From contig CAKKNE010000002.1 in NCBI GenBank assembly GCA_918797485.1, positions 558,001 through 622,000 of the forward strand: a stretch of DNA of 64,000 nucleotides, written 5' to 3'. This document shows, in pieces, positions 2,510 through 52,695 of this stretch. Every line of letters begins with the position of its first letter. The first letter of the stretch is position 1. Source of the stretch: Pelagomonas calceolata. Its lineage: Eukaryota. The position numbers and the translations under genes are program-made. The notes beneath the pieces were generated by a model. The model did no database searches, was not told the origin of the DNA, and saw nothing but the letters and a program-made list of their open reading frames with translations.

Positions 2510-5500
2510 TTACTCTAGTTCATCAAACCGCCCCAAACAACACGCCTCATCATTCGCCCCCCAAAACTCCGACAGCGCCTCGCCAATCTCGACGACGGCG
2601 GCATCACTGCAAACGCCGAGCCCCGCCGCCGCCGGACCGTACGCGACGCGGCAGCCCGGCGCGCGCGGCGGCCCGTCCGGCCCGCGGCCCTCCGCAAATG
2701 TCGCCGCGCGGCCGACGACGCGCACGACGAGCTTGCCCGCGCAGCAGGCCGCGCCGTCGGCGGGCGCGCAGGCGCCGAGACCGAACATTCGGTCATACGC
2801 GGCGCGGACGGCCGCAGGCGCGACCGAACCACAAGCAAGGGCCTCGACGATATGAGAATCGAACAGGTCCGGCCGCCCGTCGTAGATACCCTCCCAAGCG
2901 TGATCGGCAACCTCCCTCGGGCTCCGGTGCTTCTCGCCGCGCCGCAGCGCCAGCGCCGCGCCGTGCTCGACGAGGTCTTCGGCGAAGGACGGCTTCATGA
3001 CCTCCCTGCGAAACTCGCGCAGGAACGCGTCGACGCGGCCCGCGACGTAGTCCGGGTGCGCCTCCTTCGACGTCACGCAGATGCCAAAGCCCACGATCCC
3101 GTCGGTCCAGCGCGAGCCGCAGGACACGCTGTAGCCGAGCTGCTCCTTCGTGCGCAGCTGGTCGTAGAGCGGCTCGTCGATCACGGCCTCCAGCAGATCC
3201 GCTAACAACCGCGAAGCCGGCGAGTCCGGGCCGAGCTGCCAGTAGCACTCGAGCGCGCAGGCCCTGCCCTCGGCGTCCTCGCCCGCGGCGTCGACGTGGT
3301 ACGCGTGGCACCGCGGGAGCCGGGCCACGGGGCCGCAGGTCCGCGCCGTGGCGACGGTCGACACGGTCCGCAGCGACGCGTCGACGGACCGCGCCGCGTC
3401 CGCCGCACCGTTGCCGCCCACCAGAGCACTCCGCGAGCAGCCGTCGAGAAAATTGCGGAGCCAGCGCTGGCACGCGACGGCGTCCACGCTTTGCAGCGCC
3501 GCGCGGCGCTGCGCCGGCGCGAACCGCCGCCCCGGCGCGAGGCAGCACAGGCGCAGGCGGCGCGCGTGGCGGTCCGCGTCGTGCCAGGCGTTCTCCAGGC
3601 TGAGCGCGACCTCGGACTTGGCCGCCGCGAAGGCGCGCGGTTCAACAACCTCGTCGGCGGCGCGCCGCACGCCCCGCAGCAGCGCGTCGAAGAGCGCCGG
3701 CACCTTCTCGTCGAAGCCGCCGCACTTGAGCGAGAGCGCGAGCGCGTCGGCGTCCAGCACCGCCGATATCGTGTAGTCGAGGCCGGCGACGGTCGCCGGG
3801 TAGAGGTCCTCGGCGACGGCGTCCGCGACGAGGGCACTTACTAATTGCAGCGTGGCGGCGTCCGTCACCGTTGGTTTTGATGACCCCGTGAGGCGCGCCC
3901 GCACGTAGAGCGTGGGCAGCTCGAAGCGATCGGGCCGCGGAAGGACCCAGACGTCTCCAATTAACGCGGGCGCCGCGTCCGTGGCGTCGGGCGCGGCCGG
4001 GAAGCCCTCGACGAGTTTTGATAGTGCGACGTCGGCGCTGCTGGGCTTGCCCTTGCGCTTTTTTTTTGCCGGGCCGCCGGCGCGGCGCCGCCACGCGTCC
4101 GCGAAGTCTTTGCAGGCCCGCGCCGCTCGTTCGGCGTCGGCTTCTTCCTCGTTTGATGGAGCGGGCCGCGCCTTCGTCGACCCGGGCTTTAACAGAGGCG
4201 CGTCGACCACAAAAGCGTTCGGCGCCGGCAGCCCGAGCGCGGGCCAGTCGTCGCACGCGGACCACGCCTCTATTAATGAAGGGGGCACCGGCGCCGTCCA
4301 GTGCTCGGTCCCGAAGCGCGGCTCAATTTGTGGAGACTCCGCGGGCCGCCGCGTCGCGAGGTGTGCAAACGGCGCCCACGTCGCCGGGACATCATTTGAG
4401 GCGGGCGGCGGCGGCGGTTTGGCCGGCATGAGCTTCGCCAGCGCGGCGTGGAAGCCCCCTCGTCCCGCGCACCGCGGGCAGCCCGGCGCGCACGGAACTT
4501 CCGGTGGGCATTCATCGCCCCGGAACGCGGCCGTCGAGAGCTCCACTCGACATTTTGTGGGATCGGCGAGGACCCGTAATACCTCAATCGCGTCGTCGTC
4601 GAAGGGCGCGAGCAGGCACCCGCCGGCCACTTCCAGGAGGTGCTCTCTATCTACACCGTCGTGGGCCAGCATCAGCGCCGCGAGGCCCTCGACGAGATCG
4701 TCTACTTCCCCATCTTCCTCGAAATCGAAGTTCAGTCGCTCGACCTTCCGCAGCTCCGCCGAGAGCCGCCCGAGCGTGTCGTCGCAAAGCTCCCTTAAAC
4801 AAGCCCGCGCGTGCGCCAACACGCAGCCGACGACCTCGGCCCAGCGCGCCACGCCGGCTTCTGTTAAATCGACGGACACGGCGAAGAGGGCCCCGCACGC
4901 GACCGAGTCGGACACGCCGTCGCCGGACACGCCCGCCACGAGGCCCGCCGCGAGGCCGCTCCGGCGCAGCTGCGCGAGCGCGGACCTGGGCCCCTCGTGG
5001 CCGAGGCAGTGCGCCGCGAGGTCGCACGGCCGCGTCCGCCACTTGCGACGAATACTCGGGAGGGGCCACACCAACCTCAGGTCGCGCGCCGCGTCGCGGG
5101 CCGGCGCGACGCGCGCGAGCGCCGAAGCGCCGGCGGCGAAGGGCGGCGCGAGCGGCGCGGGCGGCGCGTCCCAGGACGTCCGGCGCCAGCGGCCCGCGGG
5201 ACATGTTGAGGGGCTCGCGCGCACCTGTGTGGTTTGACTTTCTTTGTTTCGCGTTCCCTCACGCCATCGACGCGCCGTTTCCCCTGTGAATGTTCTACAT
5301 GGCGGAACCTCTACGCCATCGCTCAGACACGGTTACAAGTGGCCACACCGGCGCAGACGTGCTTAAAGCTCTCGCGGCACCAGGCCTCCGTCTCGTCGAG
5401 CGCCGCCGGCGCCACGAGGCAGAGCTTCATGTTCGACGCGTGGTAGTGGTCTCTATACAACGCCTTGACGGCGGCGACGGCGCTCGCGTCGCCGTGGCGC

Positions 5501-6099
5501 AGACTTTCCGCGTGCCCCCAGGTGAAGGTGGCGAAGGGGTGGCCCGCGGGCGCGCCCGCGACGTAGAGCAACTCATCCAAACGCGCGGCGTCGTCTCTTC
5601 TGGTTTCGTTGAACTCGTTGTCGATGGCGTTCACCTCGCGCGCGACCATGTCCGGGTTGAAACTTGGTGAAACGAAGAACTGCGCGAAGATGTCCAAAGC
5701 TTCGCGGAACGCGCCGGGCAGCACGTCGAAGTAGTAGGACGTGTGCTCGACGTCCGTGTGCGCGTTCGACGAGCCGCCTCTTTTCGCCAAGAAGCCGTCG
5801 TAGGCGTTCTCGGCGGGGTACTTCTTCGAGCCCAGGAACAGCAAATGCTCCAAAAAGTGCGCCGCGCCCGGCGTGTCCTCCGGGTCCGCCCACGAGCCGA
5901 CGCCGACGACCACCGCGCACGCCGCCCTTTGGGTCTCGTCGTCTCCGTCGTCGCTGCTGTCGTCGCTGCCGGTCTCGCTCTCTTCGATCTCGTCCTCTTC
6001 CTCCGTGGGCGGCTCGTGGATGAGGAGGCACTCGAGGCCGTTGTCGAGCGTGATGAGACGGTACTGTTTTTTGTCGGAGGTGCCGACGTTGAGTTGCAT
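2510..6099 (-). CDS. M16A metallopeptidase (insulysin/nardilysin-like); exons 6099-5359 and 5224-2510
   Basis: YRLITLDNGL, acidic insert, GAAHFLEHLLFLGS (inverted HXXEH zinc motif), GGSSNAHT, LGHEG..S, LRTKEQLGY. The two ORFs join in phase 0 by removing the GT-AG intron 5225-5358. Confidence 0.9.
5225..5358 (-). mobile_element. Introner-like element forming a 134-bp GT-AG intron (decayed copy)
   Basis: Minus strand: KH|GTCTGCGC CGGTGTGG...CCACACAG|GTGCGCGC. TSD 6/8 identical, TIR 7/8 identical, internal CGATGGCGT family motifs. Splicing restores the frame. Confidence 0.8.
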
Positions 6100-6269
6100 G
6101 ATGCTGTGCGGCAGCGAGTGGTCAACAGGATGCAATATGAGTGTAACCAGGTTGCCAGGCTGTGGTGCAGCGATTGCGATGGATGCGGGCGCTGTCGTAC
6201 AGATGCACTTGCGAGCTGTACGCGAGTATTTGTGATTTTGCAGCGTTTTTTGCGGAGCCAAATTGCGCG

Positions 6270-6291
6270 CTAGTGTCTTTACAGACGCTAG
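6270..6291 (+). promoter_or_regulatory. Recurrent upstream element CTAGTGTCTTTACAGACGCTAG
   Basis: One of 8 similar copies; lies between divergent starts 6099(-) and 6486(+). Confidence 0.6.
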
Positions 6292-6485
6292 TAATCGCGG
6301 GGGTCGCAAACGCAGGCCGTCCTGAGTGTCCCAATAGGCTCCTGTGCCTGGTTTTAATCAAGTGCGTGCACAGTTCCATCTCTCGCAGCGCCAACTTTTC
6401 CCCTCGCGCCCTAGCTCTGCTGGCGAGCAACACACTCGGGTCTGCGACTCGCGTCTGCGACTATCCCACGAGATCTCCCAAAGCA

Positions 6486-6905
6486 ATGCCGCGAGTGAAA
6501 CGAAAAGCCGGTTCCGGCACTGCCACGCGGCGCCCGCGCCGCTTCGGCACGGAGTCGACCGGCATCGCGTCGGCCGCGCGGCCGATGCAGGAGGAACCCC
6601 AGGGCGGGCGGGGGCTACGATGCTGCGACGATCCTGACTGCGACGATCCGTCGATGGGCGGGGGCTACTTCGCGGTCTACCAGCCCAAGGACGGCGTCGA
6701 GGTGTTTACCGGTATCGTCGCGGTGTCCGCCGCGATCATGCAGACGCCCTGGCAGCAACCGCCCCTCAACATGCCCGTATCCTACTTCATGCTTCGCGAC
6801 CCGAATGATGATCCCATAAGCGGCGAGAAGGAGCTGATGGACCCGGGCTGGTTCATGCGTGAGATGTCGCAGTACGACGGCCCCGGCCCGCGGCTACCGG
6901 GCTAG
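6486..6905 (+). CDS. Hypothetical protein (139 aa)
   Basis: ATG in a CAATG context, GC3-rich codon usage, no recognisable domain. Confidence 0.5.
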   Translation: MPRVKRKAGSGTATRRPRRFGTESTGIASAARPMQEEPQGGRGLRCCDDPDCDDPSMGGGYFAVYQPKDGVEVFTGIVAVSAAIMQTPWQQPPLNMPVSYFMLRDPNDDPISGEKELMDPGWFMREMSQYDGPGPRLPG

Positions 6906-7068
6906 GAATTGGGTTTAGGCATCTTAAGGAAAATATAGATTGTGCTCCTCATCATATTCACTGCTACAACCGGTCTACGTTCGCACACAAAACCCGTACC
7001 GCAAATTTCTCGCATCGCGCGGCGCCTCCAATGCGCGGCAGCATGACAACTCCACAGTAGTTGCAACG

Positions 7069-8841
7069 ATGCGATGCGTGTGGGCAGCGCTCGTGGCCGC
7101 AGCGTGCGCGGCGGCCCAGAACGAAGCCGTCGCGGCGCTGGTGGCCAAGTACAAAAAAAGCGCCGGGGGCAGCCCCGCGGCGCCCACGCCCGCGAGGCAG
7201 CCCGAAGCCGCGCCGCGCGACGTCGCGGCGGCGCCTGCGAGGCAGCCCGTCGCGGGGCGAGCGGCGACTAACGACGCTGCGAACCTAAACGACGTAGTCG
7301 GGCTCTTCGCGTGGCCGAAAAAACCGCGCACCGTTTGGGCCGCCGCGAAGGCCGCGATCACGGGGCAGCCCGACGCACCGCGCACCTTCCACGCCCGCCG
7401 GCCGAGCGCGCCCGCGCCTTCTACAAATATAAACGACGACGTCGACGCCTACTTCAAAAAATGGCGCCGCGTCGTGCCGCACTGCGCGCCGCTCATGCAG
7501 GGCAGCTGCGTCTACGTCGCGCCGAACGGCGGTATCGTGCACGCGCGCGACATGAGCCTGGCCAAGAACGCCGGGAGCTCCAAACAGATGCTCGCCGACT
7601 TACAGTTAAGAGCGGTCTCGGCCTCGCTCCAAAGTGTACTACCAGAGGACCGCTGGGTCAGCTGGAACATGGTCTACACCGCGGCGGGCCCGACGAAGCC
7701 GCGGCCCTGGCCGACCTTCGCCATCGGCAAGCGCGAGCCGCACCGGCCCGGGTTACTCATGCCGAACCCCTTCTTCGGCGCGCCGTCGTGGTGGGCGCGC
7801 CACAATTTACTGCAAATTGCGGCGTCCCAGAAGCGGAGCTGGGCCACGCGACTGAAAAAGGTGCTCTATAGAGGCGCGTGCGGCCCGGGCGCGCGCGCGC
7901 GGCTCGAGCTCATGAACCTCGCCGAGTCGAGCAATTTATTAGATGTGGGCTTCACGGGCGTCGACGGCTTTCCCTCCATCCAGTCTTGTGTGGATGCGCT
8001 CGCCAAGAAGCACGAGATACGGGCGGCGCCGTCCGCTTCTCGGCGGGCGCCGCACGTCGCGCAGACGAACTACTCGCAGTATAGGTATTTGCTGCACCTG
8101 CCGGGAGCGGCCACCGGATCTTACAGTAGGAACCTCCAGTACCTCTGGACGCAGGGCTCTATCGTCTTAGTGTGGAACCAGACCGCTACCGAATTTTACT
8201 ACCGCCACCTGCAAAACGACGTGCACTACGTCGTCGTCGACGCGGCCACGATCGTTCAAACGGTGGAGGCCATCGAGGCGGACCCGGCGCGCCAGGAGCG
8301 GTTAAGGCGGGGCGCGCGCGCGTTCTACGACGCGCATTTGGCGGCGCCGCGCTTGATCGATCGGTGGCGCGCCGTGCTCGAGGCGCTCGCGCTGCGGCAG
8401 GACGTGGAGCCCTGTGTGGAAATCAACCAGTGAGTTAGGATTTGAGCCTCCACGCCATCGAGCTGCCACAGTTACGGGGACGACGGCGCGTCGATGGCGT
8501 GTGCCTCCACGCCATCGGGCAGGTGCTGTTCCGGGGACGACGTCGCGTCGATGGCGTGGGACGCCCGAAATTTGATTTCCACACAGGTCGAGCCGCCGAA
8601 GATCGACAACTCGTCCGCGTGCACCTGCGACCACCGGCTAGCTACCCGGTACCGTGCCTGCTCGACGTGCCTGCACCTCGAGGACACGGAGATGGCCTAC
8701 TTCATGGGCATTCTCAAAAAGCCGAAGCGGCCACGGGCGCCGGACCCGGACGACGTCGTGGGCCTCGCGCGCGACATCCTCGCCGCGAAGACCCTTGAGG
8801 CCGCGAGGGCTGTGGCGCGGGCGTTCGTCGGGCAGAATTAA
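7069..8841 (+). CDS. Secreted/ER glycosyltransferase family 90 (CAP10/KDELC/Rumi-like); exons 7069-8403 and 8587-8841
   Basis: Signal peptide MRCVWAALVAAACAAA. Motifs W..R..KVLYRGA, YRYLLHLPG...YSRNLQYL...GS.VL, EFYY..L....HYV. The intron joins ...RQD|VEPPKID in phase 0. Confidence 0.8.
8404..8586 (+). mobile_element. Introner element (MITE-like) forming a 183-bp GT-AG intron; best-preserved copy
   Basis: TSD GTGGAGCC (8404-8411) / GTCGAGCC (8587-8594). Perfect 15-bp TIR CTGTGTGGAAATCAA (8412-8426) ... TTGATTTCCACACAG (8572-8586). An in-frame TGA at 8431-8433 is removed by splicing. Confidence 0.93.
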
Positions 8842-8914
8842 TTTACTTTCTAGTGACAACACAAAACAAACGTCGGCCGGGTGGCTAGGCAGCCTAGCTC
8901 TGAGCGAAGCAACA

Positions 8915-9592
8915 TCATCGCTCGAAGACGCCGAGCGACACGATCTTCAGGCCGGCGCCGAGCGGGAATGCGCTGAGCTCCTCGGCCGAGACTGCAACCG
9001 GTTCGAAGCGCCCCACGCCACCAAGCTCGTCCAGGAACGCTCGTCGCCCGTCGGGTCGCCCCGGGTCGACCACGATGCACGCGCCGCGCGAGGCGCGGAC
9101 GACCCGGGCCGTCGCCCGAGCAATGGCCTCCTCGTACAACGTATCTGCCGCGACGACGACGTCAAAATCTCCGAGCGCGGCGACGGCGTCGGCATCGGTG
9201 AAATCAAGCCGTTGCACGTCGAAAGCACCATCCGCCGCGCGCCGCAGTAGCTCGAGGGAGATGTCGGACACGTCCGTCGCGACGACGTCGGCACCGAGCC
9301 TCGCGGCGGCCGCCGACGCCAGGCCCGTGCCCGCGCCGAGTTCGAGGACGCGGAGCCCCGCCACGTCGCGTGCCGCGAGCGCGCGCGCCGCGACGACGGC
9401 CGACGGCCAGCAGCACGCGCCGAAGGGATCGCTGTCGGTCTCGATCGCGGCGTCGAGCGCCGCGTCTTGCGACTCCGCCTCGTAGATGCGCACGGGTGCA
9501 GTGATGCCTGCTATTTGCACGTCTCGCGGGCGGACGGCTATCGCGTGTGCATGTGCAGTGCTGCATGAGAGCAGGAGCAACACGCATAGCAT
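8915..9592 (-). CDS. SAM-dependent protein methyltransferase (family 16, METTL21/EEF1AKMT-like) with N-terminal signal peptide
   Basis: G.CCWPSA..AARAL, VLELGAGTGLAS, VVATD, FDVVVAADTLYE. Confidence 0.85.
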   Translation of the reverse strand: MLCVLLLLSCSTAHAHAIAVRPRDVQIAGITAPVRIYEAESQDAALDAAIETDSDPFGACCWPSAVVAARALAARDVAGLRVLELGAGTGLASAAAARLGADVVATDVSDISLELLRRAADGAFDVQRLDFTDADAVAALGDFDVVVAADTLYEEAIARATARVVRASRGACIVVDPGRPDGRRAFLDELGGVGRFEPVAVSAEELSAFPLGAGLKIVSLGVFER

Positions 9593-9756
9593 GGCTGCCA
9601 CTCTGCACGCTCGACACCTAGCACGGACCTTGCAACGCGGGAAACCCGCGCCGTGCCCAATCTGGTGATCGATGCGCCTGTAACCGTGTGCTCAAAGTGA
9701 TTTATAAAGGCGAATTCGTGGTAGGGGAGGGGAGGCTGGAAAAACCGCTTGGCTTG

Positions 9757-9776
9757 CTAGTGTGTTACAGCGCTAG
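9757..9776 (+). promoter_or_regulatory. Recurrent upstream element CTAGTGTGTTACAGCGCTAG
   Basis: Lies 165 bp upstream of the 9592(-) start and is preceded by GCTTG, as in three other copies. Confidence 0.55.
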
Positions 9777-9848
9777 CTGCGCACTCTTCGCCGCGTGGCT
9801 TTGCCATCAGTGGAAAAGTCGAACCAAGGGGAAAACCACAGCGAATAT

Positions 9849-11213
9849 TTACTCGGCCGGCGCGACCGTCTCGGCCGGCGGCGGAGCGCTCTCGGCCGCG
9901 AGGCGCGCGTCCAACGCGGCCAACCTGGCATCCTCGTCGCGCTGGCGCGCCTCGGCGTCGAGGACGTTCTGGTTCTTCGAGCGCATCGACGTCCGCTTCG
10001 CGGCCTCGTTGAACTTGCCCAGGTTGAACGAGTACGCGTAGGGCACGCCGTAGTCGCGCATCTTCGCGGCGAGCTTGTATGAGCCCGACTTGTCGTCGAC
10101 GACCTTGATCGAGCGCAGGGAGCCGTCGGAGAGCGTCGCGACGGCCACGTCGCCGTTCGCCGACAGGAACTCGACCTTGGCCACGCCGCCGAGGCGCGCC
10201 TTCTTCACGAGGTCATCATATTCGATCGGCGCCGCGTCGTCGGGCACGGACGGCCGCTCGACGGCGATGTTGGCGATGGGGTTGATCTCGACCTGGGGCA
10301 GCGCCGGCAGTGCCGGCAGGCCGGGGACGCCGGGCAGCGACGGCAGCGACGGCGCCGAAAGTTTCGGCAGCGACAGGCCCGGGGCCTCCGCCGGCACGGC
10401 CGGGGCGTCCGGTGCCACGGGGAACGAGGGCAGAGACGGCAGCGAGGGCGCCGGGAGCGACGGTAGTTTCGGCGGCGAGGGCAGCGTAAAAAGAGGGCCG
10501 TCGTCGCGCTTCGGCGCCGCGGCGTCGTTCCCGCCGAGCCCGCCCCAGATGGCGCCCGGCCCGGCGACGGAGGGCAGGTTAGACGGCGACGGCAGCGAGA
10601 ACGGCAGGGACTCCGCCGGCGCGGCGGCGTCGTCCGCCGGCGCCGCTGCCGGTGGCGCGGCGTCTTCGTCCTTGGGAGTTGGCGTCGCTAAGGCTTCGGC
10701 CCGCCGCCGCGCCTCGACGGCGCGCGTGTCCTCGGCCGGCGGCGCGGGCTCCTCCTTGGGCAAGACGGGAAACGAGGGCAAAGACGGCGACGTCCCGGGC
10801 GCGAAGAGCGGCGGCAGGGGCGGCAGGTCGAGGCCCCGGACGATGTCGCCGCCCCCCTTGGCCGGGGCGTCCGGTGCCGCTGGGAACGAGGGCAACGAGG
10901 GCAACGAGGGCGTCGGCAGGGATGGCATCGACGGCATCGATGGCATACCCATTGACGGCATCGACGGCATCGATGGCGTCGGCAGAGACGGCAAGGACGG
11001 GAGACCAAAGCCTCCAGCGTTTGCTGCAGGCGGCGGCGGCTCGGGCGCGACGGAGAACTCGAGCGCAAACGCCGGTCCACCAGTAGCGACTGCGGCGACC
11101 GCGGCCGCATTGCCGAGGTGCCGTCGCACCGCTCGCTGCAGCAGTCTGGAATTCATCTCAAGCGAGGCTGCTGGCGCAAGCACAGCACAGATCAATGCGC
11201 TGTGGCGCACCAT
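9849..11213 (-). CDS. Probable plastid (thylakoid-lumen) Pro/Ser-rich protein with an FtsH lumenal/extracellular-like C-terminal domain
   Basis: Signal peptide MVRHSALICAVLAPAAS-L, then a twin-Arg-type signal RR...AAAVAAVATGGPAFA. Long (LPS/MPS)n repeats. IEYDDLVKKARLGGVAKVEF resembles the FtsH_ext segment. No AAA or protease domain. Confidence 0.55.
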   Translation of the reverse strand: MVRHSALICAVLAPAASLEMNSRLLQRAVRRHLGNAAAVAAVATGGPAFALEFSVAPEPPPPAANAGGFGLPSLPSLPTPSMPSMPSMGMPSMPSMPSLPTPSLPSLPSFPAAPDAPAKGGGDIVRGLDLPPLPPLFAPGTSPSLPSFPVLPKEEPAPPAEDTRAVEARRRAEALATPTPKDEDAAPPAAAPADDAAAPAESLPFSLPSPSNLPSVAGPGAIWGGLGGNDAAAPKRDDGPLFTLPSPPKLPSLPAPSLPSLPSFPVAPDAPAVPAEAPGLSLPKLSAPSLPSLPGVPGLPALPALPQVEINPIANIAVERPSVPDDAAPIEYDDLVKKARLGGVAKVEFLSANGDVAVATLSDGSLRSIKVVDDKSGSYKLAAKMRDYGVPYAYSFNLGKFNEAAKRTSMRSKNQNVLDAEARQRDEDARLAALDARLAAESAPPPAETVAPAE

Positions 11214-11337
11214 GGTGATCGATCGAGCTGCCCAGTGATAGATGAGATAAATGACTGCAAGCTGTGGCAATTAGAGGATTTTACAGCAGTGAACTGGAAG
11301 ACTGATGCTGCTTGACCAAGAGGATAATAAAAGCAGC

Positions 11338-14121: not shown

Positions 14122-14150
14122 TAGCGAATACTTAAAATAGTGGGTGAATT

Positions 14151-24447: not shown

Positions 24448-25641
24448 ATGCTCGAGCGACTCCCCGACGAAATAAGCATCCTGATCCTGGCGCACTGCAA
24501 GGTGGCCGAGCTGGGACGCGCGGCCCGGGCGTGGCGCGACCTCAATAACAGAGACGGCGTGTGGCGGGCGCTCCAGAAGGCGATCCTGGGCTGCGCGCCG
24601 CCGCCGCGCGGCGCGCGGGGCCGTTCGAGCGGTCGGAACAAGCTCTCGGGCAAGGAGTCGTTCAAGCGGCTCGTCGCCACGCGGCGCCAGAACACGGAGG
24701 AGGCGCGCGCGCGCTTCGAGCAGTGCGAGAAGCCGGGCATCGGCGCGCTCCGGAAGCTCCTGAAGGCGTGGCAGCCGCTCTCCATCAACCATAGAGGGTC
24801 GGCGGGCTGCACCTTCCTCCACAGCGTCGTCGCCGACGCGCGGCTCTCGCCCGCGCAGACGGTGCAGTGCGTCCGCGAGTTGCTGGATAAGCACGGGGCC
24901 GACGCGTCGCGGGGCAACGACCTGCGGATGGCGCCGCTCATGTCGGCCGCGGCGCTCGGCGATGTTAAGTTGGTGACCTTACTCTTGGACGCGGGCGCAT
25001 CCATTACTGCCCGCGGCGCCCACCCGAACGGTTTTGTGGGAGCGCCCGTGCGGCCGGGGAAGCGCGCGCGGACGCCGCGCGAGTGGGCCGAGTGCTTCGG
25101 CCAGTCGCAGGTCGTCGATTTGCTGGACCGGCGCGCGGACGCGGCGCCCGAAAGAAAGAAGCGGCGCCGCGAGGCGAAGTACTTCTGCCTGCCGGCGTGC
25201 CCCTTCTACGGCGCGAACACGGGCGAGATGGTCAACTGCGAGACCTGCGACAACTGGTTCCACTGCGCCTGCGTCGGCATCTCTCATACGGAATTCGCGC
25301 GCTTCGTGCGCGACGAGAGCGCGCGCTTCGAGTGCGCGGCCTGCGCGGCGCGGCAGGCCTCTGCGCGGCGCGTCGTCGACCGCAGCGGTGTTGTGTGGGA
25401 TGCCGCCTGGGACTCAGCAGGGCGCCAGTACTACGTCGACCGCGCGACCGGGCGGACGAGCTGGCAAGTTGACGTTACGGCGGCTGGGGCGCCGGGGTAC
25501 TACAAAGCCCGGGCGCGAGCGCGCGTCGTCGAGCTCCTCGGGGACCAGCTCTTTTCACTGCCGCCAGCGTCGCGTGCGCCTGCACTGGTGGCAACGGTAA
25601 CTCCCCCGGGAGACGACGAAGATCGAGTAATACAAGCCTAA
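24448..25641 (+). CDS. F-box + ankyrin + PHD finger + WW domain protein
   Basis: LERLPDEISILIL (F-box); PLMSAAALGDVKLVTLLLDAGA (ankyrin); FCLPAC...MVNCETCDNWFHCACVG...FECAAC (PHD); W..AWDSAGRQYYVDRATGRTSW (WW). Confidence 0.85.
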   Translation: MLERLPDEISILILAHCKVAELGRAARAWRDLNNRDGVWRALQKAILGCAPPPRGARGRSSGRNKLSGKESFKRLVATRRQNTEEARARFEQCEKPGIGALRKLLKAWQPLSINHRGSAGCTFLHSVVADARLSPAQTVQCVRELLDKHGADASRGNDLRMAPLMSAAALGDVKLVTLLLDAGASITARGAHPNGFVGAPVRPGKRARTPREWAECFGQSQVVDLLDRRADAAPERKKRRREAKYFCLPACPFYGANTGEMVNCETCDNWFHCACVGISHTEFARFVRDESARFECAACAARQASARRVVDRSGVVWDAAWDSAGRQYYVDRATGRTSWQVDVTAAGAPGYYKARARARVVELLGDQLFSLPPASRAPALVATVTPPGDDEDRVIQA

Positions 25642-43622: not shown

Positions 43623-44680
43623 TCAGGATACGACGCAGGCGCACTCCGAGGCGCCGACCTCCGCGCCGTCCATGGACTTGCAGGGGTCCGCGCAGGACGT
43701 CGGCTCCGGCGGCCGGGAGCACGGGTCCTCCACATCCGAAGCGTCCACCGAACAACCGGGCCCGGGCCGGCACTCGCAGGCCGTCGTCTCGGCCGCGCGC
43801 GGCCCGCCGGCGCGCTTCTTTTTGGTCGCGAAGACGCAGACGAGTAGGCGGCGGCCCCGCTTGATGGGCAGGCCCTCGTGCCTGCGTGGAAAATCAAAGT
43901 TCGGGCTGCGTCTGCGCGATGGCGTGGCGATTCCACGCCCTCAGCGCGACGTTGTCCTTGTGACCGCGTCGGCTCGATGGCGTGGCGATTCCACGCCATC
44001 GGCGCGACGTTTGTCCCCGTGACCGTGTCTGCTCGATGGCGTGGAGGTTCACGAAGGTCCACGCAATATTTCTCACGGGTAGATTTCCGCGCCGCCCCGC
44101 GCTGTAAGGTATCGGAGGGGAAGACGACCGTCGAGCCCTTGGCCGGCTTCGCGTCGAAGGACGGTTCCAACACCGAGGGAAAGAAGCGCGTGCCGCCTCC
44201 TTCAAAGTCGACGCCGGGCGTCGAGAGGAGTAATAACAAAGTAGCACCCTCCTTCCTTCCATCAGTGTGCTTCTTCAGGCCCTTCTGGCCGCCCGCGTCG
44301 TAGACGATGCAGAAGGCCCGCGCCATGGAGAACTCCAGCCTGATCTCCGGCGGCAGCTCGTCGGAGGCCCTGGAAGCCGACGCCTCGAGCGCGGCGCGGA
44401 TCTCGTCCTGCGACCGTTGCGGGAGGGAGGAGACTAGCACATCCTGGGTTGGCAGGGAGACGCCCCGGTCCGTCGTCTTGCCCGCGTCGAAGCACGCGTT
44501 GACCGCGTCTCTGGCCCGGTCGCAGGCGTCCGGCGCTAGAGCGCCGGCGATCTCGAAGACGGGCGCGCTCGACTTCGAGAGCCGCCGCAGGTGGAACTTG
44601 GGCGTGGGCTTCTCGTTGACGGGGTTCTCCTCGTCGTTCGGGAGCTCGCGCAGGGGGCGGCGGCCCCAGAGGAGGGCCAT
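43623..44680 (-). CDS. 2-oxoglutarate/Fe(II) dioxygenase (P4H/PLOD-like); exons 44680-44103 and 43881-43623
   Basis: HTD...TLLLLL...DFEGGGTRF...G..VVFP. Splicing restores L-Q-HEGLPIKRGRR (distal His and 2OG-binding Arg). The spliced product ends in CVVS. Confidence 0.85.
43882..44102 (-). mobile_element. Introner element forming a 221-bp GC-AG intron
   Basis: Minus strand: CA|GCGCGGGG CGGCGCGGAAATCT...TTGATTTTCCACGCAG|GCACGAGG. TSD 6/8, imperfect TIR matching the 8404 element, ~2.5 internal units. Phase-2 splicing rebuilds the catalytic motif. Confidence 0.88.
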
Positions 44681-45282: not shown

Positions 45283-45897
45283 ATGCTGCGCGCACTCGTC
45301 TTAACCAAGCTGGCCATGCACGCGAACACGCTGACACCGTCGACTAGACGACGACGACTACAAACGAGACGCCCGCTCGTCACCGAGGCCGTCGACCTCG
45401 ATGCCTGCCTCTCGAGCGACGACGCGCTCGAGCCGCTCTATGCGTCGACGCCAGAACACGGCTACGCGCGGTGCCCCGACTGCACGGCACCGGTGGACGT
45501 TGTGAGTGTCGACGCGCTGCTGTCGGCCCGCGCGTTCCACCGCGAGTGCCGGAACTACGCCGAGGCCGACTTGCTATTGGAGCAGCTGCGCGCGGTCTGT
45601 GGCGTTGTCGTTGATGATGAAAAAATGAGTTGGCGCTACTCTGACCACGCGGAAAAGCCGGCAGAGGCCGCGGAGGCCTCCCTGCCGGCGTTCGACGGCG
45701 ACTCGGCGGCGCTCGACGCGGCTCTCGTAAACGCGGTCGAGGCGATCCTGCGGCGGCGCGCCGCGGCGCAGCTGGCCAAGGACTACGTCGTCGCTGACGC
45801 GCTGCGCGACGAGCTGCGCGCGGAGTACAACGTCGCGGTGCACGACCGCGACGGTCGCTGGCGACTTCTTGAGCCGACGAAGCGAAGGCTCGTGTAA
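45283..45897 (+). CDS. Protein with two CysRS C-terminal (anticodon-binding-like) repeats and no catalytic domain
   Basis: R...R..RNYAEAD.L..QL...GVVVDD....W and RR..A...KDY..AD.LRDEL...Y.V.V.D....W. Confidence 0.65.
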   Translation: MLRALVLTKLAMHANTLTPSTRRRRLQTRRPLVTEAVDLDACLSSDDALEPLYASTPEHGYARCPDCTAPVDVVSVDALLSARAFHRECRNYAEADLLLEQLRAVCGVVVDDEKMSWRYSDHAEKPAEAAEASLPAFDGDSAALDAALVNAVEAILRRRAAAQLAKDYVVADALRDELRAEYNVAVHDRDGRWRLLEPTKRRLV

Positions 45898-46084
45898 TTC
45901 TTCTTGGTGAAAGGGCCCTGATAGGACTAGTGGGCGGAGCCCCTGGGGGGAGGAGACACCGCGCGTTTGAATCGGAGCCGCTGGCGCTAGTAGGTAAGGT
46001 GTATGCCTGGGCTTGGTGTCTCGGCTGCCCCCGCAACGCAGCCCGCGCGGTCGCGTGTACCGGCACTACAAACGCGAATTTAGC

Positions 46085-48091
46085 ATGGGGGACGATGCCA
46101 ATGGCGGCTGCTGTACCCTCAAGCGCGGCTCCGGGATCTTCATCCTCGTGCTCTCCATCCTCTCCCTCGTCGGCAGTATCATCTGCGCGGTCATCGCGGG
46201 CTTCTCGGAGATGGGCCTCTACACGGCCTTCAACTGGATCCACTTCGTCCTCCTCATTTACCTTATCTCGGCCGCTTCGGCCTACGTGTGCTGCCGAGCG
46301 TGCGGCCCCAAGATCACGGGGGGGCTCGCCGTCGGCTACTGCGTCCTCGCCTTCGTGACCTTCATCGTCCTCGCGACCGGCCAGCGGTCCGCCATCGAGC
46401 ACAATTGCGAAGGTACGGTGGAGTGCGCCTCCATCTCAGACTGGGACCATCCTGATCCCGAGTGCGGGCGCAAGACGTCGTCCTTCTCGCTGTGCTACTT
46501 GCCGGAGACGGACGACCGCCGCCGCCGTCTCGCCGCGCTAGCGTACGCTGAACCTGAAGAAGCTTCTGAGAAGAAAAAGGAGAAGACGAAGAAGACGAAG
46601 AAGAATAGAAAGAAAGACGGGGCGCCGGGGCCACGGCGCGCGCTCCAGGGCTGCTCGCTGACCGGCGACCTTTGGTCCTCTCCTAGCGGCACGACGAATC
46701 ACGGCAATTCGGACGGGTGGTGCTACAGCGAATTGGACCAGGACGTGGGCTGCACGGAGTCGCCGAGAGACTGCTGGGAGACGTGCCTTTACTACTACGG
46801 CGACGACCTCGTGGCCATCGACTGGAATGACGACGGCACCTGCTACTGCCAAAATGACTGCGAGTGCATGTCGGACGTCGGCGACGACGAAACCTACCTC
46901 ATCACGCGCGACTCGAGGGTCGGCGCGCTGCCGCACGAGTGCGACGACGGCGTCGTGACCCTCTACGAGGACAAGAGCCGCGGCGCGGGATGCGACGCGC
47001 TCGACTCTAGCGGCAATGTCGTGAACACGAACTCCGCGGACCACTGCTGCCAGGGCGAAGGCTATTGTTGCGATTACGGGTCATGCACCTCGGATTCGGA
47101 CTATTGCGGTTACCGGTTCCGCTGTGGCGGTCGTCTCTTCGTCGCCGGGCCCTCGGGGGGCACTTACTACGACGCGACGGCCTACTGCTCAAGCATAGGC
47201 GCATCGATCGCCACCATCTATAGCGCGACCGAGAACGAGCTGGCGCGCCAGGCCTGCGGCGGCTCGTCGTGCTGGATCGGCCTCGAAGAAGTCGGCGGCG
47301 ACGCGTCGACGCCCAAGGAGAGCCAGACGTGGCGGTGGATGGATGGATCGACAGCCAGTTACACGAACTGGCTGCCGAGCGAGCCGCAGAATCACGAGGG
47401 GAACGACGAGAGGAACGCCATCATGAACTGCTGCGGCACAGACGGCGTCGACGCGTCGGGCATGTGGTACGACGCGGGCGGCGGCTACGGGGCCCCGAAG
47501 CCCCTCTGCCGCACCGATGGTAGCGGTACGTACGTTGCCCCGACGTGGTACTACTCGAAGTGGGGCGACGACTGCCAGCACGGCGGCGGCGGCGGCGACG
47601 ACCACTGCCGCGTGTTCAAGACACAAGACGACTGCATCAACTATTGCAATCCGTGGGACGACGACGCCGACGAGCAGTGCGAGGACGCGGACGACCCGGA
47701 AGACTGCAACTCGATCGTTACGCACGTCAACACGGTGGCCGGCTGGTCGACGTTTTTTGTAGGGCTGGTGCTCTTCCCGACTCTCGTGTGGGTCGCGCTG
47801 CTCTTCGCCGTCCCGGACCCGCAAGCTGCTGCGCCCGTGACCGCGGTGGAGTTGCCACGCATGCAACCCCAAGTGATGATGGTATCGCCCGTATCGCCCG
47901 GGGGCGGGCAACCTCAGGTGATCATGGGCCAGCCCCAGATTGTCCAGGGGGGGCAACCTCAGGTGATCATGGGCCAGCCCCAGATGGTCCAGGGCGGGCA
48001 ACCTCAGGTGATCATGGGCCAGCAACCTCAGGTGATCATGGGCCAGCCCCAGGTTGTCCAGGGTGCCCCGTCGAAGCTCGCCGAGTTCTAG
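46085..48091 (+). CDS. Four-TM membrane protein with a large Cys-rich ectodomain containing a C-type lectin domain
   Basis: Three N-terminal hydrophobic helices and one C-terminal helix. CTL motifs A..YC...GA.IATI....EN, CWIGL, W.W.DGS...YTNW...EP.N. Cytoplasmic (QPQVIMG)n tail. Confidence 0.8.
   Translation: MGDDANGGCCTLKRGSGIFILVLSILSLVGSIICAVIAGFSEMGLYTAFNWIHFVLLIYLISAASAYVCCRACGPKITGGLAVGYCVLAFVTFIVLATGQRSAIEHNCEGTVECASISDWDHPDPECGRKTSSFSLCYLPETDDRRRRLAALAYAEPEEASEKKKEKTKKTKKNRKKDGAPGPRRALQGCSLTGDLWSSPSGTTNHGNSDGWCYSELDQDVGCTESPRDCWETCLYYYGDDLVAIDWNDDGTCYCQNDCECMSDVGDDETYLITRDSRVGALPHECDDGVVTLYEDKSRGAGCDALDSSGNVVNTNSADHCCQGEGYCCDYGSCTSDSDYCGYRFRCGGRLFVAGPSGGTYYDATAYCSSIGASIATIYSATENELARQACGGSSCWIGLEEVGGDASTPKESQTWRWMDGSTASYTNWLPSEPQNHEGNDERNAIMNCCGTDGVDASGMWYDAGGGYGAPKPLCRTDGSGTYVAPTWYYSKWGDDCQHGGGGGDDHCRVFKTQDDCINYCNPWDDDADEQCEDADDPEDCNSIVTHVNTVAGWSTFFVGLVLFPTLVWVALLFAVPDPQAAAPVTAVELPRMQPQVMMVSPVSPGGGQPQVIMGQPQIVQGGQPQVIMGQPQMVQGGQPQVIMGQQPQVIMGQPQVVQGAPSKLAEF
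47905..48064 (+). repeat. Coding tandem repeat (GGQPQVIMGQPQ) x~4
   Basis: CAACCTCAGGTGATCATGGGCCAG occurs four times. Confidence 0.9.
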
Positions 48092-48593
48092 GCCACTTCC
48101 TCGCGGCTCCCTCTCTCCCTCCCCCTTGTCCTCATGTCCAGACGGTTATCCACGTGGAGCATACTATTCGCGTCAAAGATCTACTAAGTAGACAAATTGC
48201 AGACTTGGAGTTTAGACGATGGCGCACGCCGTCGGAAGCTGTGTGTGGGGGGGCGGCGTCGGTGGCTCCGGGACTAATGTGCCCGATGGTGGCCAAATTT
48301 TTTTCAATCCCCGGGGATCGGTCCGGGGAGTCGTTCCCTTGTGTAGACGGGCGTGGATTATGGCCGGGGTGATTGGTGATTGCAGCAACTCTAGAGAGCA
48401 AACTCTTGGGCTTCAGTGTCAAAACATTTAGCGCAAAGAGCAAAGGAGATCGCCGCGCGGGCCTCGCTCGTGCACTGGTCTCGTTTAACTCCAAAAAACC
48501 AGGCGTGAGTCGCGCGCGCTGTGGGGCATCGCTCCTGAATTCTCAGGACAAGTTAGGCCAACCAGGCGAGCATATTGCCGGGAACCACGAGCG

Positions 48594-49427
48594 ATGTTGG
48601 CGCCGCGCCTCCCAGTAACGGCGCGTGACGAAGCCGAGCCTTCGCCAGACGCCGCAGAGCGCATCGAGGCCGTCGCAAAATCCGAGCCGAGCTTCCTGCC
48701 GCGGGCCGACTACGTCAGCGCAACGCAATCAAACGGCATGACCGTCGCGTCGAGAGAGAAGATCGTCGGCTGGTACGAGCAGATGGGCGCCGCCTTCGGC
48801 CTCGGCGACCACCTCCTCGACCTCGCGACGAACTACCTCGACCGCGCCCTCTCGGCGCGGTCGGTGAGCGCCGACGAGTTCCGGAGGGACGCCGTCGCCG
48901 CCATCTACCTCGCGGCCAAGGTCGAAGGCGCCGCCGCGTTCAAGGCCGCCGACGTCGCCGCGCTCACCCGCGGGAATGTCACCGCGGAGGACCTGATCGC
49001 GGCCGAGGCTGACCTCGTAAAAACGCTCCAGTGGCGCACGCACGCGCCGACCGTCGCCGTCGCGGTGCTTGACGCGATCACGTTCCACGAGGTCTCCGTC
49101 GCCGACGAGGTCTCGGCGTTTGCCCGCGCGGCGCGCACGTCCTACGAGCTCGTCGGCGCGCCGCCCACGCTTGTGGCGGCTGCATGCGTCGTCGCAGCGT
49201 CACCGAACGCGCGCGCGGTCGCCGAGGCCGCGTCCCAACTCGACACGCCCTGGGGCGGCTCGCCGTCGCGGGTCCAGGCCGCCGCGGCCCTCCTGCGCGC
49301 GGCGCGCGCCAAGCGGGCCGCCGCGCGCGCGGGAGTCGCGTTCGTGCCGGTGGAGACGCCCGACGACTGCGCGACGGTCACGCCCGACCCGCCGACGCGG
49401 TCGCCTTCCCCCTACTCGAAGCACTGA
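48594..49427 (+). CDS. Cyclin (cyclin-box N domain; D-like/stramenopile-expanded type)
   Basis: REKIVGW......FGL.....LATNYLDR.LS, AAIYLAAKVE, E..LV.TLQWR...PT. Confidence 0.85.
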   Translation: MLAPRLPVTARDEAEPSPDAAERIEAVAKSEPSFLPRADYVSATQSNGMTVASREKIVGWYEQMGAAFGLGDHLLDLATNYLDRALSARSVSADEFRRDAVAAIYLAAKVEGAAAFKAADVAALTRGNVTAEDLIAAEADLVKTLQWRTHAPTVAVAVLDAITFHEVSVADEVSAFARAARTSYELVGAPPTLVAAACVVAASPNARAVAEAASQLDTPWGGSPSRVQAAAALLRAARAKRAAARAGVAFVPVETPDDCATVTPDPPTRSPSPYSKH

Positions 49428-49468
49428 GCTGACTGCGCGACGGTCACGCCCGACCCGCCGACGCGGTC
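49365..49468 (+). repeat. 38-bp direct duplication spanning the cyclin stop codon
   Basis: GACTGCGCGACGGTCACGCCCGACCCGCCGACGCGGTC at 49365-49402 and 49431-49468. Confidence 0.95.
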
Positions 49469-49954
49469 CTCCTGAGCTGTCCGACCTCCCTACCACCACG
49501 ATCCTTTGACTGTTCCACTTGTTTGGTTCCACTTGTTTGGTTCCGCTCGCGCCCGACGAGACGTCGGCGCGCCCGGCCCCCGCCGCCTCTCAGAGGCGGC
49601 GGCGCAGCCCTGTTCGGGTCCCTTTGTCTGAGTTCTTTCTACTAACCTTACTATTATTTCAACATATCTATTCTATTCTATTCCGATTTGCTCCAGCGGC
49701 AAAAACCCGTTTAGTAGAATTGAATTTTTGAATTTAGCCTCTCAACGCGCGAGAGCGACGGCGCGCGAGACGGCCAACACGCTCTTACATAGGCACGCAG
49801 CAGCAAGCGCAGCAGCTCTGTGACCGCCACCCAGCGGCCAGCCAAAAGAAACCGCGCAAAGTGCAGCACTAGCGGAGTACAGCAGCCCTCGCCGCGCTAC
49901 ATGTCCACAGCGGCACCGCAACCCTCTCCGCGCGTCACGCCGGACAAGGAGCCC

Positions 49955-51912
49955 ATGGCTCAAAACAAGAAGATTTACGTCTTGGACTGCGGCGGCCAGT
50001 ACTGCCACCTCATCGCGTCTAGGCTGAGGCGCCACGAGGCGCTCTCGGTGATCGTGCCGCGCGCCGCCGCGTCCCGAAGCAAGCGCCGCGTCTGCGCGAT
50101 GGCGCGGAGGAGACACCACTTCTACGCCATCGACGACCGCGCCGCCGCGCCTCGACTCACCGGTCGCGCACACGCAGGTGCGACGTGCCCGTCGCCGAAC
50201 TGAACGATGCGGCGGCCATCGTCGTGAGTGGAGGGCCCCAGTCGTGCTTTGATCCGGACAGCATGAAGGTCGACCCCGCGCTGTGGCAGCTCCCCGTGCC
50301 CATCCTAGGGATTTGCTACGGGTGCCAGATGATGTGTAGAGATCTCGGTGGTAAAGTAGAAGAAGCCCAAGTGGGCGAGTACGGCGCTGCGACGTTAACG
50401 GTCACCGATTCATCCGGTTTACTGAAGACAGCGCAAAACTCGACGGTCTGGATGAGTCATAGAGATAAGGTCACGCAGCTCCCGCCGGACTTCACGACCA
50501 CGGCCACAACATCCCACTGCCCCCACGCCGCCGTGGCCTGCGAGGTCGGTGGGAAGCGATTGTACGGGTTTCAATTCCATCCTGAAGTGACGCATTCCCA
50601 AGAGGGCGAGAACATGCTCGGGGCCTTCGTCGACCTCTGTGGATTGAGGGGGTCGTGGCGCATGGACGACTTCGTGGACGAGCAGCTCGCGAAGATCCGG
50701 AATAAGTGCGAAGATGGTAGATCGGTGTTTGTTCTGGTGAGCGGTGGTGTTGATTCTACCGTAACTTATGCACTACTCGCAAAAGCACTACCCCCGGATC
50801 GTATTCTAGGGTTGTACGTGGACACGGGCATGATGCGCAAGGGCGAGAGTGCATTGGTGGAAGAATCATTACAGAAGGCGGGCCTGCCGAACTTGCGATG
50901 CGTCGACGCGTCGGCCCAGTTCCTAGGCGCGCTCGAGGGCTTGACGGCCCCGGAAGCGAAGCGAAGGGCCATCGGCCAGCAGTTCCTGGCCGTCCAGCGC
51001 GACAAGTGCAAGGAATTAGGACTGGATCCCGAGAAGTGGTTATTAGGCCAAGGCACGATCTACCCCGACACGATCGAGTCGGGAGGGGCCGCGAAGAAGG
51101 CCGACGTCATCAAGACGCACCACAACCGCGTGCCGGAGATCGACGCGCTGATCGAGCGCGGTTTAGTGGTAGAACCTCTAGCTGATTTATATAAAGATGA
51201 GGTGCGCGCCGTCGGCGAGCGGCTGGGCCTCGCGCCGCACTTAGTGTGGCGCCAGCCCTTCCCGGGGCCCGGCTTAGGCGTTCGATTATTATGCCACGAT
51301 GGCGAGGACGACGACGCCGACATGAGGGCCAAGGCCGCTCAACAAGCCACGGCGCTCGTCGGCGCCACGGTGTCCGTGCCCCCCTTGAAGAGCGTGGGCT
51401 GCCAGGGCGACGCGCGCACTTATAGAAACTTCGGCGTCATTTGCGGCGATTACGGACGGGACTGGGATGTGCTCGGCGACGCGGCCACAAAAATAGTGAA
51501 CGAGAGCGGGAGTTTGAATCGCGTTTGTGTTTCGTTATTACACAACAAGGCCGGAGACGCGCCGTCGTTCTCCGTGAGCCCGGGCGGGCCGCACACGTGC
51601 ACCTCGGACCGATTCGACGTATTAAGGGAGGCCGACGCCATCGCGACCCAAAAACTCACGGACGCGGGCCTGATGCGCAAGATCTGGCAGTGCCCCGTGG
51701 CCATGGCGCCTCTGACGCTTAACGGCGAGAAGGGCGAGGTCATCATCCTGCGGCCGGTCGACTCGACGGAGGCGATGACGGCGTCCTTCTACCGCGTGCC
51801 CTTTGAGATCTGCGACGACATCGCCTCCGCTATTAAGGAGGCGCTGCCGCAGATTTCGGACGTCCTCTTCGACGTGACCAACAAGCCGCCGGGCACGATC
51901 GAGTGGGAGTAG
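49955..51912 (+). CDS. guaA: GMP synthase (glutamine-hydrolysing); exons 49955-50058 and 50178-51912
   Basis: VLDCGGQYCHLIA, SGGP, PILGICYG, QFHPEV, SGGVDS, QGTIYPDTIES, IKTHHN, PFPGPGL, KPPGTIEWE. The start could be the upstream in-frame ATG (MSTAAP). Confidence 0.95.
50059..50177 (+). mobile_element. Decayed introner-like 119-bp GC-AG intron
   Basis: CC|GCGCGCCG CCGCGT...CACACGCAG|GTGCGACG. TSD 6/8; family motifs GCGTCTGCGCGATGGCG and ACGCCATCGAC. Splicing gives VIVPCDVP. An alternative GC donor at 50056 cannot be excluded. Confidence 0.75.
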
Positions 51913-51950
51913 ATGTATAGCCGCGACCGTATCTAACAACATACAACTTA

Positions 51951-52695
51951 CTATACTTCCTTTCCCCGCGTCGCGACCCAGAGCTCGCCGTGGAAGCGCA
52001 TCGCGGCGTGGTGCGCGGCCGCGGCGAAGACGTGCCAGCCCGCGTGGAACCAGTAGACCGGGTTGAGCGCGCTCGTGGGACACGTGCCTTCTCGGTACCG
52101 GTACTGCTCGATCTCCCAGATGATTTTCCCAAATGCAAAAGTCCCTATGAACCAAAACCAAGTCCGCAGCGGCGCGCCGATCTTTCTACTCGCAGAGAAC
52201 GCGATGCCACCCGCCAGGAAATACTGGAACCTGTGTGCGAAGAATATTGTGCGTTTGCCCCCACGCCATCGAACTGACACCGGCCACGAGCGTCAGCGTG
52301 TTGATGAACACCGCATAGTTCTGCCACCATACATATGTCACGGCGCCGACGATCGGCACGCCCGCGCCCACGAAGAGCGTTCGTCCCCAGAGTGGCGGCC
52401 TCGTCCAGGGGTGGATATCGCGGACGCTCCACAAGTACGCGTGTGCCAGCAGCATCATCGGGAGCTCGTCTAGGAGCTCCGCGCGCCACGACGCGCCCGC
52501 CGTGCCGTGAAAGAGGACGCTGCCGACGAACACGACGATCAATAGGAGCTCGGCAGCGACGAACTCGAAGGGCAGGCCTCGTTCCTTCGCGAGCCGCCAG
52601 CCGATGTAGGCGGTGATTGCAAATATCAAGTTACTAAACGTGTTGGTCCACTCGAAAGTGCGGACCTCCGCCTCGCACCATTTGACGGCAACCAT
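51951..52695 (-). CDS. Alkaline ceramidase family (CREST superfamily) membrane hydrolase, two exons
   Basis: WCE.....EWTNTFSNL, GSVLFHGT, LLDELPM and HAGWHVF (zinc His residues). The frame change near 52230 is resolved by a short intron. Confidence 0.85.
52231..52291 (-). mobile_element. Short remnant introner-like intron (donor uncertain: GC at 52291 or GT at 52309)
   Basis: Ends in the family acceptor CACACAG and contains TCGATGGCGTGG. An intron is required to join the two ceramidase frames. TSD and left TIR are not clearly recognisable. Confidence 0.6.

What the first reader, a model, noticed from the sequence alone, without database searches (positions are those of the whole stretch)
5225..52309. 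All five detectable introns are one introner family forming a decay series
Seen: introns at 5225-5358(-), 8404-8586(+), 43882-44102(-), 50059-50177(+) and ~52231-52291(-) sit in five unrelated genes. All end in CAC(A/G)CAG|G and share ACGCCATCG/CGATGGCGT motifs. TSD identity is 7/8, 6/8, 6/8, 6/8 and unrecognisable, and lengths are 61-221 bp. The acceptor-side TIR stays conserved while the donor-side TIR erodes. The other ~25 genes look intronless. Inference: intron content here is almost entirely transposon-made, and the series shows an element becoming an ordinary intron under selection on the splice signal only.
Basis: partly seen in the sequence, partly recalled or inferred. Interest (0 to 1): 0.85.

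Follow-up and report, generated by a model that had tools for sequence, protein, structure and literature searches.

The report
Known alga introners, loosely decaying

Summary
The window is Pelagomonas calceolata. All five coordinates hold: four introns by RNA joints, 5225-5358 by an annotated protein identical at 1151 of 1151 residues. RNA shows a sixth intron, 62544-62617(-), of the same family, ending CACGTAG. The shared 9-mer is 352-fold enriched. Metagenome copies give the intact element: 203 bp, 15-bp terminal inverted repeat, 8-bp duplication, subfamilies A and B. The window's introns are best matched by B, in both orientations. The element supplies AG and the duplication supplies GT/GC (66 of 66). 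This is the published Aureococcus-type introner; 956 putative copies are already reported in this genome, and decay into ordinary introns is published for fungi. The neat 'series' is only partly supported. TSD values are 6, 7, 6, 6, 4, 1 of 8; the longest is not the youngest; length does not track TSD or divergence in 73-98 other copies; and donor/acceptor asymmetry is confined to the last 7 nt (positions 8-15: 25 of 48 at both ends). Modest new point: family-derived introns probably far exceed the published 13-15%.

The parts
5225..5358 (-). Intron 1, 134 nt, GT-AG, in an insulinase (peptidase M16) gene; old B-type element, reversed orientation scores slightly better (55.5 v 52.5); TSD copies 5351-5358 and 5217-5224, 6/8; TIR 8/15 at both ends
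   Evidence: no RNA joint among those shown
8404..8586 (+). Intron 2, 183 nt, GT-AG, in a glycosyltransferase-90 gene; youngest copy: element 8412-8586, both 15-bp TIRs perfect, TSD 8404-8411 / 8587-8594 7/8, two internal hairpin units, B forward
   Evidence: RNA joint
43882..44102 (-). Intron 3, 221 nt, GC-AG, in a 2OG-Fe(II) oxygenase gene; B forward with a 15-nt deletion and an extra, partial third internal unit (58-59 nt spacing); TIR 11/15 at both ends; TSD 6/8
   Evidence: RNA joint
50059..50177 (+). Intron 4, 119 nt, GC-AG, in GMP synthase; old B element, reversed; TIR 6/15 donor and 7/15 acceptor; TSD 6/8
   Evidence: RNA joint
52231..52291 (-). Intron 5, 61 nt, GC-AG, in a ceramidase gene; remnant, best match B reversed; TSD 4/8 (chance level)
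   Evidence: RNA joint
62544..62617 (-).
   Evidence: RNA joint (2 reads plus 1 contig)
25474..25567 (+). Doubtful 94-nt non-family GT-AG intron implied by NCBI model CAH0367302.1; the frame is open through it and environmental relatives read through
   Evidence: not covered by RNA

Best explanation
All six introns carry remnants of one 203-bp repeat family with inverted ends, likely a non-autonomous cut-and-paste transposon (an introner) that inserted into coding DNA and then wore down at different rates. Shown: the intact element has the same 15-bp inverted repeat at both ends, so either orientation puts CACACAG at the 3' end and supplies the AG. The 8-bp target duplication supplies GT or GC at the 5' end. 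Splicing removes the element plus one duplication copy and restores the reading frame. Inferred: a transposase encoded elsewhere moves it (8-bp duplications are typical of hAT elements, recalled); insertions whose duplication does not start with GT/GC are purged from genes. Once fixed, a copy loses interior DNA quickly and independently through deletions, sometimes gains or loses a 58-nt internal unit, and collects substitutions. Selection keeps the GT/GC and about the last 7 nt, and TIR positions 8-15 erode equally at both ends. Length is therefore a poor age clock.
For: RNA joints. Annotated and homologous proteins are ungapped at the junctions of introns 1 and 4. 122 metagenome loci gave 98 copies with both ends: 40 with TSD 8/8 and 23 with 7/8. 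The B profile ranks the window introns at the top (E 3e-23 to 0.56). Each intron, with its last 7 nt removed, scores above dinucleotide shuffles (0, 0, 0, 0, 2 and 7 of 500 reach it). 66 of 66 copies whose host-gene strand could be called have a GT/GC donor from the duplication: 50 forward, 16 reverse, 11 uncalled. 79 distinct endpoints among 83 deletions; interior divergence 7.5% in copies under 100 nt against 6.3% in full-length ones. Relatives at 82-87% protein identity, some on contigs of 25-66 kb, are unbroken at introns 1 and 4, which suggests the introns were gained.
Against: Membership of introns 5 and 6 by free local alignment is weak: scores 32.5 and 28 against window-control 95th percentiles of 27.5 and 30; intron 6 rests on its anchored end match. 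Two non-intron stretches score like the old introns in the B profile (10921-10982, E 0.045; 32766-32837, E 0.12). Among 98 copies, shorter ones have more left-TIR mismatches (rho -0.34, p 0.0006). The metagenome set was picked for a near-perfect right end, so it is biased to young copies, and it mixes genomes. No transposase was found, and no empty site was seen at DNA level.
Confidence: 0.85

Rival explanations
1. One reading: the introns form one ordered decay series in which length, TSD and donor-side TIR fall together while the whole acceptor-side TIR is kept.
For: Two long, well-folding copies against four shorter, unfolded ones. Acceptor last 7 nt 41 of 42 against donor 27 of 42 without shifts (positions 4-7: 24 of 24 v 15 of 24, p 0.002). 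Length against left-TIR mismatches rho -0.34.
Against: Positions 8-15 are equal at both ends (25 of 48). The 4-7 gap nearly closes with a 1-nt shift in introns 5 and 6. The longest copy is not the best kept. Length is unrelated to TSD (p 0.27) or interior divergence (p 0.22) in other copies. In young copies the left TIR has 6.1% mismatches at the donor end and 4.2% at the acceptor end (p 0.33).
Confidence: 0.25
2. The old-looking introns (1, 4, 5, 6) are ancestral introns that later received a piece of the repeat, or match it only through a shared splice-site consensus; only introns 2 and 3 were made by the element.
For: No TSD in introns 5 and 6; weak free-alignment scores. CAC(A/G)CAG could be a general acceptor preference in this alga (not tested).
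Against: Introns 1 and 4 keep 6/8 TSDs at exactly the splice positions (chance P 0.03 each) and a TIR-like start 8 nt after the donor. Intron 6 matches the family left end in register over 20 nt, and its donor end matches the right end at 13 of 23. 82-87% relatives appear to lack introns 1 and 4.
Confidence: 0.1
3. The terminal 7-nt stem is selected at both ends as an RNA pairing aid, with the donor-side second base changed so that the acceptor AG is not trapped in a hairpin.
For: In intron 2 the acceptor CAG is predicted to pair with the donor-side TIR. Donor TIR position 2 is changed in 5 of 6 window introns, against 2 of 6 and 1 of 6 at positions 4 and 6 (read, with the 1-nt shift for introns 5 and 6). 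In young copies 5 of 50 at the donor end against 0 of 16 at the acceptor end. Introns 3 and 4 carry the matching variant at position 4 on both ends.
Against: Seen after the fact, n = 6. Not significant in young copies (p 0.32). A general AT-to-GC drift would give similar changes. Old introns are not predicted to fold better than shuffles.
Confidence: 0.12

Closest known systems
Putative introner elements of Pelagomonas calceolata (Guérin et al. 2022, PMC9481584)
   Same: Same species. Intron peak near 210 bp (203 + 8 = 211 here), GT and GC donors, AG acceptor, conserved TIR.
   Different: The paper counts 956 copies by more than 90% repeat overlap (about 13-15% of introns). In the passages read it gives no TSD length, subfamilies or decay analysis. 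Its logo (Fig. S3b) and Data 3 could not be seen, so sequence identity with its families is presumed, not checked.
Introners of Aureococcus anophagefferens (Huff, Zilberman and Roy 2016; not read, known here through)
   Same: One splice site carried by the element and one taken from the TSD; either orientation; about 200 bp; an 8-nt TSD class is described as similar in pattern.
   Different: Different genus (Aureococcus GMP synthase BLAST identity 59%, 76% over aligned columns). Whether the TIR sequence is shared could not be tested (searches gave no sequence or organism).
Fungal introner-like elements (Collemare et al. 2013, PMC3609843)
   Same: Multi-copy, stably folding young introns that degenerate in sequence and length until they look like regular introns.
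   Different: Ascomycete elements have no TIR or TSD; these have both.

Membership tests
MITE-type introner (Aureococcus pattern) | Terminal inverted repeats | tested here: met
   15/15 at both ends of intron 2; 59 of 98 metagenome copies with a left TIR without mismatch (sum of length bins)
MITE-type introner (Aureococcus pattern) | Locus-specific 8-bp target site duplication | tested here: met
   63 of 98 copies at 7-8/8; window 6, 7, 6, 6 of 8 for introns 1-4; not met individually for introns 5 and 6
MITE-type introner (Aureococcus pattern) | One splice site from the element, the other from the TSD; mRNA length unchanged | tested here: met
   RNA joints; ungapped homologs for introns 1 and 4; 66 of 66 GT/GC donors
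MITE-type introner (Aureococcus pattern) | Intron creation in both orientations | tested here: met
   50 forward, 16 reverse, 11 uncalled; window 2 forward and 4 reversed by best score, intron 1 narrowly
MITE-type introner (Aureococcus pattern) | Many similar copies in unrelated genes | tested here: met
   122 loci, about 1600 stretches estimated; 35 proteins with varied domains contain a translated B element; six unrelated host genes
MITE-type introner (Aureococcus pattern) | Autonomous transposase partner; insertion in nucleosome linkers | not testable with these tools
   No whole genome held; no chromatin data
Published A. anophagefferens introner families | Sequence similarity to their consensus | tested here: inconclusive
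   The TIR string is not in the stored, cut supplement of PMC9860276; translated-element searches named no organism
P. calceolata putative IEs (Guérin 2022) | Species, about 210-bp length, GT/GC-AG, TIR | tested here: met
P. calceolata putative IEs (Guérin 2022) | [quoted passage not shown] | not testable with these tools
   Data 3 sheet not in the stored file; the four old introns probably fall below it (inference)
Fungal introner-like elements | No TIR and no TSD | tested here: not met
   TIR and TSD present; it decays like them but is not a member

The most novel reading that the evidence does not exclude
Most introns on the GC-rich chromosome arms of P. calceolata, not the published 13-15%, are relics of this one TIR family. 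They come and go between populations (near-identical environmental proteins appear to lack introns 1 and 4 and break at other codons). They shrink by fast, independent deletions before substitutions build up, and the donor-side TIR is selectively changed at the base that pairs with the acceptor AG. The genome would then be a dated, population-level record of transposons turning into ordinary introns.
Probability: 0.35. Interest if true: 0.55.

Novelty: already known. Interest (0 to 1): 0.3.

Why it matters
Introner-made introns and their decay into ordinary introns are both published, and introners are already reported for this genome, so the core is known. What is useful: a reconstructed 203-bp element with two subfamilies lets old, short introns be traced to the family. 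5 of 5 RNA-defined introns in 40 kb are family members (exact 95% lower bound about 48%, by formula), which suggests a large undercount. The data also warn that length is not an age clock. With the public genome, RNA and ocean metagenomes, rates of intron birth, shortening and loss could be measured directly in one of the most abundant marine eukaryotes.

Tried and rejected
Viral contigs: 10 matches to a 17-nt TIR pattern, none with more than about 25 aligned profile positions (best E 0.04), taken as chance. Rfam: no match. Calling intron ends in the flanks of metagenome loci, to test end asymmetry on copies not picked by their ends: the coding model alone got 2 of 5 window introns right. Adding a TSD term got 5 of 5, plus two false calls, but left only 7 of 18 flank calls, several clearly wrong (positions 8-15: 26 of 56 donor v 36 of 56 acceptor, p 0.09); inconclusive. 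Short-repeat-guided deletion as the main shortening route: weak, 9 of 83 deletions with 3 nt or more of microhomology against 6.5% expected, though two remove exactly one 58-nt unit. An alternative GT donor 5 nt upstream for intron 4 was rejected: the RNA joint uses the GC at 50059. The 27-nt gap in a transcript of the kinase gene near 29837 is a repeat-unit difference, not an intron. 9-mer hits at 5622, 10971 and 51635 lie in coding DNA. Other skips in the RNA tables (such as 8432-8541 and 43927-44016) lack splice-site ends and are read as reads from other copies. Translated-element searches gave no taxon. Earlier scan notes held nothing relevant. Rows dropped before counts: of 123 pattern matches, 98 distinct copies had a left end; 77 with TSD of 5 or more and enough flank went into the orientation test, and 73 with a subfamily call into the divergence test.
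Full report
Setting. The window is 66% GC and gene-dense. No whole genome was held. Nine of ten other ORF translations are held by NCBI and UniRef on a 6.14-Mb contig. The organism is therefore P. calceolata.

Are the introns real? RNA was laid on two 20-kb stretches, 43201-63200 and 4601-24600; 24 kb of the window were not covered, and 6 and 18 weaker joints were not shown. Joints match 43882-44102 (20 reads in two raw runs, two contigs), 50059-50177 (37 reads), 52231-52291 (26 reads) and 8404-8586 (31 reads). Three of these have GC donors. No joint was shown for 5225-5358: reads there come mostly from the + strand, antisense to the gene, and two contigs cross it unspliced. Its support is the annotated protein and gap-free alignment to 82% relatives. 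RNA also shows a sixth intron, 62544-62617(-), with 2 reads and one contig; splicing it joins two long frames. Long contig pieces cover many other genes without gaps. One NCBI model implies a 94-nt non-family intron at 25474-25567, but the frame is open and 7 of 9 environmental relatives shown read through it; it is untested by RNA.

Is it one family? The 9-mer is 352-fold enriched in the five introns (12 in 718 nt against 3 in 63,282). A scan of metagenome contigs with the right-end pattern gave 122 loci. Of 123 matches, 98 distinct copies had a left end; 40 have a perfect 8-bp duplication and 23 have 7 of 8. Full-length copies are 203 bp, so the intron is 211 bp. There are two subfamilies with the same 15-bp TIR (61 A, 27 B, 10 unassigned). 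B holds two 58-nt units, each bounded by the 9-mer and its reverse complement. All six window introns score best against B: introns 2 and 3 forward, introns 1, 4, 5 and 6 reversed, with intron 1 close to a tie. With the last 7 nt removed, 0, 0, 0, 0, 2 and 7 of 500 shuffles reach the observed scores. Against random window stretches, intron 5 is near the 99th percentile and intron 6 is below the 95th, but intron 6 matches the family left end in register at 18 of 20 positions (P 2e-8). Two coding stretches score like the old introns in the profile search, so individual old copies need the splice evidence as well.

How it works. The TIR ends in CACACAG on either strand, so the element brings an acceptor in both orientations. 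The donor is the first two bases of the upstream duplication copy. Of 77 metagenome copies tested, a coding model could orient 66 (50 forward, 16 reverse; the search pattern favours forward), and all 66 have GT or GC there. Splicing removes the element and one duplication copy, which restores the coding sequence. Mobilisation by a transposase elsewhere is inferred; none was found.

Is it a decay series? There is a young-old contrast. Introns 2 and 3 fold far better than shuffles (z -4.2 each); introns 4, 1, 5 and 6 do not (-1.3, +1.1, +1.5, +1.1), and length follows this in the six (rho -0.89, p 0.02). But the TSD values are 6, 7, 6, 6, 4 and 1 of 8, the longest intron is long because of an added unit and has worn ends, and length against TSD is not significant (five: p 0.22; six: p 0.08). 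In other copies length does not track TSD (rho 0.11, p 0.27, n 98) or interior divergence (rho -0.14, p 0.22, n 73), and 14 of 36 copies under 100 nt keep 8/8. Deletions are nearly all unique (79 endpoints among 83), so copies seem to shorten one by one and early. This set is biased to young copies and mixes genomes. On end asymmetry, the acceptor keeps 41 of 42 of its last 7 nt, three of which are the splice signal itself. The donor side keeps 27 of 42, or 35 of 42 with a 1-nt shift in two introns. Positions 8-15 are 25 of 48 at both ends. In young copies the left TIR differs at 46 of 750 positions on the donor side and 10 of 240 on the acceptor side (p 0.33). So selection on the splice signal is supported; conservation of the acceptor TIR as a whole is not.

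Comparison with what is known. Guérin et al. 2022 (PMC9481584; passages of the main text, Supplementary Note 3 and the file descriptions; passages of its preprint; Fig. S3b and Data 3 not seen) report 0.45 introns per gene, a 210-bp peak and 956 putative introners with GT/GC donors, AG acceptors and conserved TIRs, and more numerous, shorter introns in low-GC regions. Gozashti et al. 2022 (PMC9860276; passages, parts 2-3 of 7, supplement rows) list Pelagomonas and Aureococcus families and this splice-site recruitment. A 2020 preprint (10.1101/2020.10.14.339549; passages) describes the A. anophagefferens pattern and an 8-nt, both-orientation class as similar to it. Collemare et al. 2013 (PMC3609843; abstract and passages) describe fungal elements degenerating in length and sequence into regular introns. 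PMC11282704 and PMC10228655 (passages) are reviews; PMC12130899 had no hit for the pelagophyte terms. Huff et al. 2016 was not read. Seven literature searches showed no decay analysis of P. calceolata introners, but the library lacks most subscription papers and bioRxiv supplements are closed.

A lead on turnover. Among environmental proteins 91-100% identical to the window's, two read into an intron at the intron-1 position, while six cross it unbroken and stop at codon 336. Four GMP synthase fragments cross the intron-4 position unbroken and diverge at codon 176.

Verdict. The family is an Aureococcus-type introner already reported for this species. The ordered series and one-sided TIR erosion are only partly supported. 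Interest 0.3.

Noticed in passing
window 5195-6932 (+): An abundant + strand transcript runs antisense over the 5' part of the insulinase gene, including intron 1, and contains a short ORF (6489-6905). Sense reads of the insulinase gene are few there.
   Followed up: partly
GMP synthase 49955-51912(+) and insulinase 2510-6102(-); proteins P0023, P0025, P0027, P0028, P0031, P0039-P0050: Near-identical environmental proteins break at other codons (176; 336) and cross the window's intron positions unbroken, while others read into intron 1 with a different interior. This suggests intron presence/absence polymorphism.
   Followed up: partly
window 25474-25567 (+): The NCBI model CAH0367302.1 splices a 94-nt non-family intron that environmental relatives read through; probably an annotation artefact or a minor isoform.
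   Followed up: partly
window 8412-8440, 8540-8586 and 43900-44075: Hundreds of poly(A) RNA reads from other family copies pile on introns 2 and 3, so family sequence is common in transcripts through retained introns or untranslated regions.
   Followed up: no
donor ends of all six introns: The second base of the donor-side TIR, the one predicted to pair with the A of the acceptor AG, is changed in 5 of 6 introns while the next five bases mostly persist.
   Followed up: partly
window 5298-5337 and 5259-5330: Intron 1 matches the B profile in both orientations in overlapping parts, which may reflect an internal inversion between the hairpin arms.
   Followed up: no
window 48594-49427 (+): The cyclin gene has essentially no RNA in the four runs laid; the sulfotransferase-domain gene at 54285-55115(-) is also nearly silent.
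   Followed up: no
window 55757-59152 (+), 45998-48091 (+), 9849-11270 (-): Repeat-rich coding regions: a protein with several WWE-type repeats, a C-type lectin-domain protein with 45-nt repeats at 47882-48063, and 9-nt repeats at 10330-11000.
   Followed up: no
window 14115-14154, 19148-19174, 25638-25641, 30661-30683, 54280-54285: Several convergent gene pairs end within 0-30 nt of each other, so their 3' ends must overlap.
   Followed up: no
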